This document shows positions 40,773 through 40,911 of a stretch of 64,000 nt of DNA, piece by piece. Below the pieces are notes generated by a model, which was given only the letters and a program-made list of their open reading frames with translations, had not been told where the DNA came from and ran no database searches. The position numbers and the translations under genes were made by a program. The first letter of the stretch is position 1, and every line of letters begins with the position of its first letter. The stretch comes from Rhynchobatus australiae (lineage: Eukaryota), in contig JAUZTB010000087.1 of NCBI GenBank assembly GCA_034780895.1, forward strand, positions 104,834,152-104,898,151, in the 5' to 3' direction.

Positions 40773-40911
40773 GAGACAAAAGAATGCTGCAAATGCTGGA
40801 AATCTGCCAGTCCTGATGAAGGATCTCGACCCGAAACGTCGATTGTCCACTCCCCCCCCAAGATGCTGCCTGACCCGCTGAGTTCCTCCTGCCCTTTTTG
40901 TGTGTTGCTCC
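40773..40911. mobile_element. Short Penelope-derived hammerhead element with inverted tail and 12-bp TSD
   Basis: AGATAAACAGTG at 40761-40772 and 40912-40923 flanks an inverted tail (40773-40806) and a forward hammerhead plus GATGCTGCCTGACCCGCTGAGTTCCTCC body. Confidence 0.8.
40808..40845 (+). ncRNA. Minimal type I hammerhead ribozyme motif (Penelope-associated), apparently intact
   Basis: CAGTC-CTGATGA-A-GGAT(CTCG)ACCC-GAAAC-GTC^GATTG. Stem I is CAGTC/GATTG with one G-U pair. Catalytic core complete, stem II has one mismatch, stem III is the loopless palindrome ACGT, and the cleavage triplet is GUC. Confidence 0.75.

What the first reader, a model, noticed from the sequence alone, without database searches (positions are those of the whole stretch)
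40808..40845. Apparently intact minimal hammerhead ribozyme inside SIM2 intron 1
Seen: CAGTC CTGATGA A GGAT CTCG ACCC GAAAC GTC GATTG folds as a type I hammerhead. It has a 5-bp stem I, the full CUGAUGA/GAAA core, one extra A after A9, a 4-bp stem II with one mismatch, and predicted cleavage after GUC at 40840. Stem III is only the palindrome ACGT, with no loop. Established: Penelope-like elements carry such minimal hammerheads, which are thought to cleave as dimers through a palindromic stem III, and an extra base after A9 is tolerated in some natural hammerheads. Inference: this copy may still self-cleave, probably only when paired with a second copy.
Basis: partly seen in the sequence, partly recalled or inferred. 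Interest (0 to 1): 0.75.

Follow-up and report, generated by a model that had tools for sequence, protein, structure and literature searches.

The report
Antisense Penelope hammerhead relic in SIM2
A small self-cutting-RNA motif of a kind already described in Penelope-type jumping genes sits in an old, broken insertion in the first intron of SIM2, on the strand opposite to the gene, so it is not part of the SIM2 transcript and is likely an inert relic.

Summary
The motif is real: 40808-40845 (+) holds every hammerhead core base and fits the published consensus of minimal hammerheads of Penelope-like elements (PLEs); one descriptor hit in the window, none in 300 shuffles. It is the 5' end of a 139-bp insertion with a perfect 12-bp target-site duplication and the family's 34-nt tail inverted at the other end, a PLE hallmark. 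The repeat is high-copy (6,618-14,740 contigs laid per run) and is tied to RT + GIY-YIG proteins of sharks. This copy's stem II has an A.C mismatch and does not fold alone; none of the 8 other hammerhead-bearing copies in the window keeps a full motif to pair with; published minimal hammerheads do not cut as monomers. The insertion is shared with relatives about 7% diverged. Cleavage and expression were not testable. The scan has noted the same kind of element in other shark-like genomes. Verdict: ordinary new member of a known kind, likely inert.

The parts
40761..40772 (.). Left copy of a 12-bp target-site duplication
   Evidence: Exact 12-bp repeat, occurs only twice in the window; 24 of 2643 random sites show a flanking repeat this long
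40773..40806 (-). 34-nt 3' tail of the repeat family, inverted relative to the rest of the insertion
   Evidence: Its reverse complement aligns to the 3' ends of 6 of 6 other copies tried; family continues into this tail after 40915 (loose ends)
40807..40911 (+). 5'-truncated pseudo-LTR piece of a Penelope-like element: hammerhead plus about 65 nt of downstream body
   Evidence: nhmmer/BLAST relatives across the window; thousands of contigs laid; family continues 5' of 40807 with pyrimidine-rich sequence
40808..40845 (+). Minimal type I hammerhead motif; core complete; A.C mismatch 40823/40830 in stem II; G.U at 40810/40843 in stem I; predicted cut 40840/40841
   Evidence: Sequence; descriptor scan; published consensus; folds
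40912..40923 (.). Right copy of the target-site duplication; its first 4 letters equal the family's continuation (microhomology)
   Evidence: one change at 40922 in organisms C and D
52216..52392 (-). SIM2 coding exon 1 (bHLH), followed by a GT donor; defines the host gene as minus-strand
   Evidence: 100% identity to named SIM2 proteins; Pfam HLH
23349..23421 (-). SIM2 next coding exon (approximate limits); closes intron 1
   Evidence: tblastn and AG acceptor
28700..28828 (-). Relic C-terminus of a PLE GIY-YIG endonuclease ORF, followed by pyrimidine-rich sequence and, at 28086-28034, the body of the same repeat family
   Evidence: 59% identity over 34 aa to P0011, an RT + GIY-YIG protein; repeat hit
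34942..35182 (+). Nearest other hammerhead-bearing copy (5.9 kb away, same strand), C3 changed to G, perfect stem II, own flanking direct repeat, split by an assembly gap
63461..63600 (-). Full-length decayed copy with tail in normal position; A9 and G12 lost; A-U at the stem II pair that is mismatched in the target

Best explanation
This is the hammerhead motif at the start of a 139-bp fragment of a Penelope-like retroelement's terminal repeat, inserted antisense in SIM2 intron 1, and it is likely a dead relic that would not cut RNA in the cell. Shown: core bases, duplication of the target site, inverted tail, high copy number, opposite strand to SIM2, presence at the same place in relatives about 7% diverged. 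Inferred: the element's RT/GIY-YIG protein nicked both target strands 12 bp apart and primed on one uncut RNA at two sites 34 nt apart, giving the tail on one side and the hammerhead-bearing body, inverted, on the other; the copy then decayed neutrally, and it is by chance the one copy of nine here that still has its whole core. In the parent element the motif would cut after GUC as a dimer joined through the ACGU palindrome or with help of the element's protein (taken from papers, not tested).
For: Strand: SIM2 exons all on minus; the minus strand of 40700-41000 has no CTGANGA and no GAAA. Repeat: 7,040 of 10.8 M, 6,618 of 9.7 M, 10,837 of 23.9 M and 14,740 of 26.8 M contigs laid at 80%, depth concentrated on 40781-40928 (4 of 14 listed runs laid). 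PLE link: GIY-YIG relic upstream of a family copy in this window; shark protein P0012 reads on from RT/GIY-YIG into a peptide matching the motif's translation at 9 of 13 residues. Tail and inversion are described PLE traits; microhomology of 4 nt and 2-3 nt at the two junctions. Damage: stem II alone 0 kcal/mol against -3.4 and -1.4 for two other natural copies. 8 of 9 hammerhead-bearing copies in the window fail the descriptor. Published: no monomer activity, low dimer activity.
Against: The core, the G10.1-C11.1 pair, the palindrome and all 4 CpGs of the motif are intact in an old insertion, which selection could also explain; but local CpG depletion is mild (o/e 0.63-0.70). The letters of the orthologous copies inside the motif were not shown (table cut), so neutral decay of this very copy is not demonstrated. 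No RNA data were available. The folding penalty (-1.2 against -10.0 kcal/mol) has no positive control and part of the competing fold is family-wide.
Confidence: 0.85

Rival explanations
1. Same origin, but this copy is still chemically competent: given an RNA and a partner copy or the element's protein it would cut slowly at 40840/40841, without any role for the host.
For: All core bases and the palindrome are present; the published PLE motifs include short 3-4 bp helix II forms; an anole PLE hammerhead cut only with protein.
Against: Only two stacked pairs close stem II before the mismatch; the dimer fold scores -1.3 against -22.8 kcal/mol (no control); no intact neighbour. This rival concerns test-tube chemistry and is compatible with inertness in the cell.
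Confidence: 0.3
2. The copy has been kept by selection and processes an antisense transcript across SIM2 intron 1.
For: Present at the same site in four organisms' runs; whole core retained.
Against: Known domesticated intronic hammerheads are canonical and conserved across amniotes; this one is minimal, mismatched and one of very many copies. No plus-strand gene or transcript was seen in the window; shared presence is expected of any fixed insertion.
Confidence: 0.03
3. The 140-bp unit is a non-autonomous mini-element mobilised in trans by PLE proteins rather than a truncation of a full element.
For: Several window copies begin within a few bases of the hammerhead and end at the tail; depth is highest on the short body.
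Against: In all four runs 140-250 contigs continue 5' of 40807/40808 with pyrimidine-rich sequence, and a GIY-YIG relic leads into such sequence at 28700. It changes the label, not the verdict on this copy.
Confidence: 0.25
4. Chance match to a loose motif.
For: No Rfam hammerhead hit; covariation among 13 window rows is not significant.
Against: 0 of 300 shuffles give a hit; the motif is part of a repeat family and matches the published consensus.
Confidence: 0.01

Closest known systems
Minimal hammerheads (min-HHR) in pseudo-LTRs of metazoan Penelope-like elements (Cervera and De la Pena 2014, PMC4209133)
   Same: CUGANGA plus one extra base, G10.1-C11.1, no helix III beyond a 15.2-16.2 palindrome, NUH site, short helix I, U-rich 5' flank in the family, mostly solitary truncated copies. 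The fugu, cichlid, lamprey and Xenopus rows of its Fig. S3 have the same C-G-U-C ending.
   Different: Helix II is 4 bp with a mismatch here (5-8 bp in most listed rows). No cartilaginous fish was found among 4 names searched in the supplement or in the alignment part read.
Poseidon PLE of Anolis carolinensis, PAc (Frangieh et al. 2024, PMC11167929)
   Same: Hammerhead near the end of the pseudo-LTR, 30-40-nt tail lying between two RT start sites, AT-rich target, uncut RNA used as template (this insertion spans the cut site).
   Different: PAc is full-length and active in vitro; here only 139 bp remain, and the clade of the parent element was not determined by a tree.
Domesticated intronic hammerheads of amniotes (RECK and others; review PMC6155905)
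   Same: Type I hammerhead inside an intron of a protein-coding gene.
   Different: Those are canonical and conserved across classes; this one is minimal, antisense to the host pre-mRNA and one of very many repeat copies.
Twin-primed inverted LINE-1 insertions (Ostertag and Kazazian 2001; recalled, not read)
   Same: One RNA, two priming events, 3' end in one orientation and the internal part inverted, microhomology at the junction, intact duplication.
   Different: No poly(A) tail; the break falls at the PLE tail boundary.

Membership tests
PLE minimal hammerhead | Core C3-U4-G5-A6-N7-G8-A9, G12-A13-A14, A15.1-U16.1, H17 | tested here: met
PLE minimal hammerhead | One unpaired base between 9 and 10.1; G10.1-C11.1 pair | tested here: met
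   A40820; G40821-C40832; feature list
PLE minimal hammerhead | Palindromic 15.2-16.2 without loop III | tested here: met
   40836-40839; consensus
PLE minimal hammerhead | Stable helix II and short helix I | tested here: inconclusive
   Helix I 5 pairs met; helix II mismatched and unfolded alone in this copy, paired in two other copies
PLE minimal hammerhead | Covariation in stems across the family | tested here: inconclusive
   13 decayed rows: 72.9% of cells paired against 21-58% when slid, but shuffles reach the observed values in 27-438 of 500
PLE minimal hammerhead | Self-cleavage as dimer or with protein | not testable with these tools
   Needs bench assay
Penelope-like element | Motif lies downstream of an RT + C-terminal GIY-YIG ORF | tested here: met
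   Indirect: relic at 28700-28828 leading to a family copy across an N gap; P0012 read-through. No ORF is attached to this copy.
Penelope-like element | 30-40-nt tail at one end, inverted structure, target-site duplication | tested here: met
   described
Penelope/Poseidon clade | RT phylogeny; no extra Zn-finger in the RT-EN linker | not tested
   No tree was built
Rfam hammerhead families | Covariance-model score at gathering threshold | tested here: not met
   No hit
Domesticated intronic hammerhead | Sense to the host pre-mRNA | tested here: not met
   SIM2 minus, motif plus
Domesticated intronic hammerhead | Conserved above neutral rate in orthologs | tested here: inconclusive
   Insertion is shared, but letters inside the motif were not displayed

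The most novel reading that the evidence does not exclude
This solitary copy has been kept whole across several cartilaginous-fish lineages because it cuts an antisense RNA spanning SIM2 intron 1, pairing in trans with transcripts of the many other copies; it would be a domesticated dimer-type ribozyme acting on a developmental regulator.
Probability: 0.03. Interest if true: 0.6.

Novelty: new member of a known kind. Interest (0 to 1): 0.1.

Why it matters
Little by itself: thousands of such motifs per genome were reported in 2014 for other vertebrates, and this adds one copy from a cartilaginous-fish-like genome. Its one instructive trait is the insertion's anatomy, a minimal genomic picture of two priming sites on one uncut PLE RNA, which suits the 2024 in vitro work. 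It would matter for gene regulation only if a plus-strand RNA and selection on this copy were shown.

Tried and rejected
Rfam scans: no hammerhead hit; read as a gap in the models for loop-less motifs (my inference), not as evidence against. No whole genome held, so no genome-wide alignment or copy count; the depth ratio is not a copy number by the tool's own warning. Two exact-pattern scans of metagenome contigs found 0 loci. No RNA holder listed: no evidence on expression either way. No contig joins across an empty site in the four runs laid: the pre-insertion state was not seen. First protein search with the 43-aa relic found nothing; the HMMER scan found 9, of which P0003 is a repeat-rich unrelated hit and was dropped. 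Pfam gave no family for the relic itself nor a PLE family for P0002-P0010. PDB search with P0011 gave only 2 weak unrelated hits. Covariation test inconclusive. Bacterial promoter scan is irrelevant to this organism and was disregarded. Thermodynamic preference for other folds was given little weight for lack of a control. Lunse et al. (RNA Biol, dimer cleavage of PLE hammerheads) is not held; known only through the review passage. Literature searches for hammerhead + Penelope + cartilaginous/shark/elasmobranch returned no paper describing this family; subscription journals and Repbase/Dfam were not searchable, and supplement file 1 of PMC4209133 was not searched. The stem-II mismatch search was seen as a listing only and not used. 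No earlier notes by sequence or in this genome.

Full report
Observation. A generic minimal-hammerhead descriptor finds this one site in the window and none in 300 dinucleotide shuffles. Rfam gives no hammerhead hit.

Host gene and strand. Coding exon 1 at 52392-52216 is 100% identical to named SIM2 proteins, is followed by a GT donor, and the next exon starts near 23420; all six exon hits lie on the minus strand. The motif is therefore in intron 1 but antisense. The minus strand of 40700-41000, which the pre-mRNA holds, has neither CTGANGA nor GAAA. The motif cannot cut the SIM2 pre-mRNA in cis.

The insertion. A perfect 12-bp direct repeat flanks 40773-40911; 24 of 2643 random sites of that spacing show such a repeat. 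Inside, 40807-40911 reads as hammerhead plus body on the plus strand, and 40773-40806 is the family's 3' tail in reverse: it aligns to the tails of 6 of 6 other copies tried, and in sequencing contigs the family continues into this tail after 40915. The duplication shares 4 letters with the family's continuation at the right junction and 2-3 at the left. A 30-40-nt tail at one end, inverted arms and short duplications are described for PLEs (passages of PMC3846280; PMC8557442). Frangieh et al. (PMC11167929, parts 1-2 of 4 read) found that a PLE protein cuts and extends both target strands, starts at two RNA sites that bracket the tail, and uses uncut RNA. I infer that this insertion arose by such double priming on one RNA; it spans the predicted cut site, so its template was uncut. 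This step is inference from one locus.

The family. nhmmer lists 20 rows in the window with a full-length copy as seed, 12 of them at E<0.02 including the seed. Laying contigs of 4 of the 14 listed runs on 40300-41400 at 80% identity gave 7,040, 6,618, 10,837 and 14,740 contigs, with depth concentrated on 40781-40928. The longest listed pieces from other copies differ at 13-20 letters in about 90-105, so this copy is well diverged from them. The loose-end majority strings show a C at the place of 40843 in 4 of 4 runs (a Watson-Crick pair in stem I), CpG-type changes in and next to the core in 3 of 4, and pyrimidine-rich sequence 5' of 40807. Link to PLEs: 28700-28828 (minus) encodes a relic matching the C-terminus of P0011, a whale-shark protein with RT and GIY-YIG Pfam hits, at 59% over 34 residues; pyrimidine-rich DNA follows, then an N gap and a microsatellite, then the family's body. 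Independently, the zebra-shark protein P0012 reads on past its GIY-YIG end into a peptide equal to the translation of this motif at 9 of 13 residues, with Gly where this copy has Asp, which means G at the place of 40823. No tree was built, so the clade is open.

Age. Contigs of organisms C and D run from the unique left flank through the inverted tail into the motif (to 40825 and 40849) and from 40863 into the right flank, where they differ at 28 of 413 and 33 of 481 letters; organism B's contig shows the right junction with 10 differences in 538. The insertion predates a split of about 7%. The table of other letters was cut, so the orthologous motif's letters are unknown; that test remains open.

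Is it still a working ribozyme? For: whole core, G10.1-C11.1, palindrome and four CpGs intact, though CpG depletion is mild here (o/e 0.63-0.70). Against: stem II alone does not fold (0 kcal/mol), whereas two other natural copies, one with G-C and one with A-U at that pair, give -3.4 and -1.4; so the mismatch is copy-specific damage. The hammerhead fold scores -1.2 against -10.0 kcal/mol as a monomer and -1.3 against -22.8 as a dimer; I give this little weight, since the model ignores the core's tertiary contacts, no active control was folded, and one competing hairpin is family-wide. Of nine copies in the window that reach into the hammerhead, eight fail the descriptor through core, palindrome or stem changes, the nearest, 5.9 kb away on the same strand, by C3 to G. 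Cervera and De la Pena (PMC4209133; parts 1-2 of 4 and supplement file 2 part 2 read) report no monomer and low dimer or trimer activity for such motifs, thousands of mostly solitary copies per genome, and a consensus that this motif fits at every position. The review PMC6765202 (passages) says the same and cites Lunse et al., which I could not read. Covariation on 13 decayed window rows was inconclusive. No RNA run was listed, so expression is unknown.

Comparison and novelty. It works like, and by the sequence features tested is, a PLE minimal hammerhead; self-cleavage could not be tested and helix II is damaged. It is not a domesticated intronic hammerhead of the RECK type (review passages, PMC6155905): wrong strand and not canonical. 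Three searches of the held library for this motif in cartilaginous fishes found no describing paper, so the taxon may be unreported there, but the kind has been in print since 2014. Earlier notes of this scan report the same kind of element in other shark-like genomes; I had stated my reading before that look-up and do not count them as support.

Verdict. Observation confirmed; interpretation partly supported; most likely an inert antisense relic (0.85). New member of a known kind, interest 0.1.

Noticed in passing
window 34925-35204: Another copy with a 22-nt flanking direct repeat; its hammerhead end appears on both sides of a 100-N gap (33 identical bases), probably one copy duplicated by the assembly.
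   Followed up: partly
window 20322-20600: Head-to-head inverted pair of an older subfamily, with a tail placed just before the second hammerhead remnant: typical PLE partial tandem plus inversion.
   Followed up: partly
window 60460-60572: Inverted hammerhead remnant overlapping head to head with a plus-strand body of the same family.
   Followed up: partly
window 28034-28828 (minus): Relic PLE 3' end: GIY-YIG C-terminus, pyrimidine-rich terminal repeat, hammerhead region lost in an N gap and microsatellite.
   Followed up: yes
window 53900-54620: About 620-bp tandem array of 12/16/28-bp related units, 1.5 kb upstream of SIM2 exon 1.
   Followed up: no
window 40435-40484: Organisms C and D lack 48 bases here; the window has a short internal duplication at this place.
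   Followed up: no
window 1-64000: CpG observed/expected is 0.48 overall and 0.63-0.71 in parts, high for vertebrate intronic DNA.
   Followed up: no
window 20859-21167, 37034-37306, 32423-32638, 33046-33282 (minus): Open stretches that look like LINE-type retroelement remnants (recalled resemblance); Pfam named none convincingly.
   Followed up: partly
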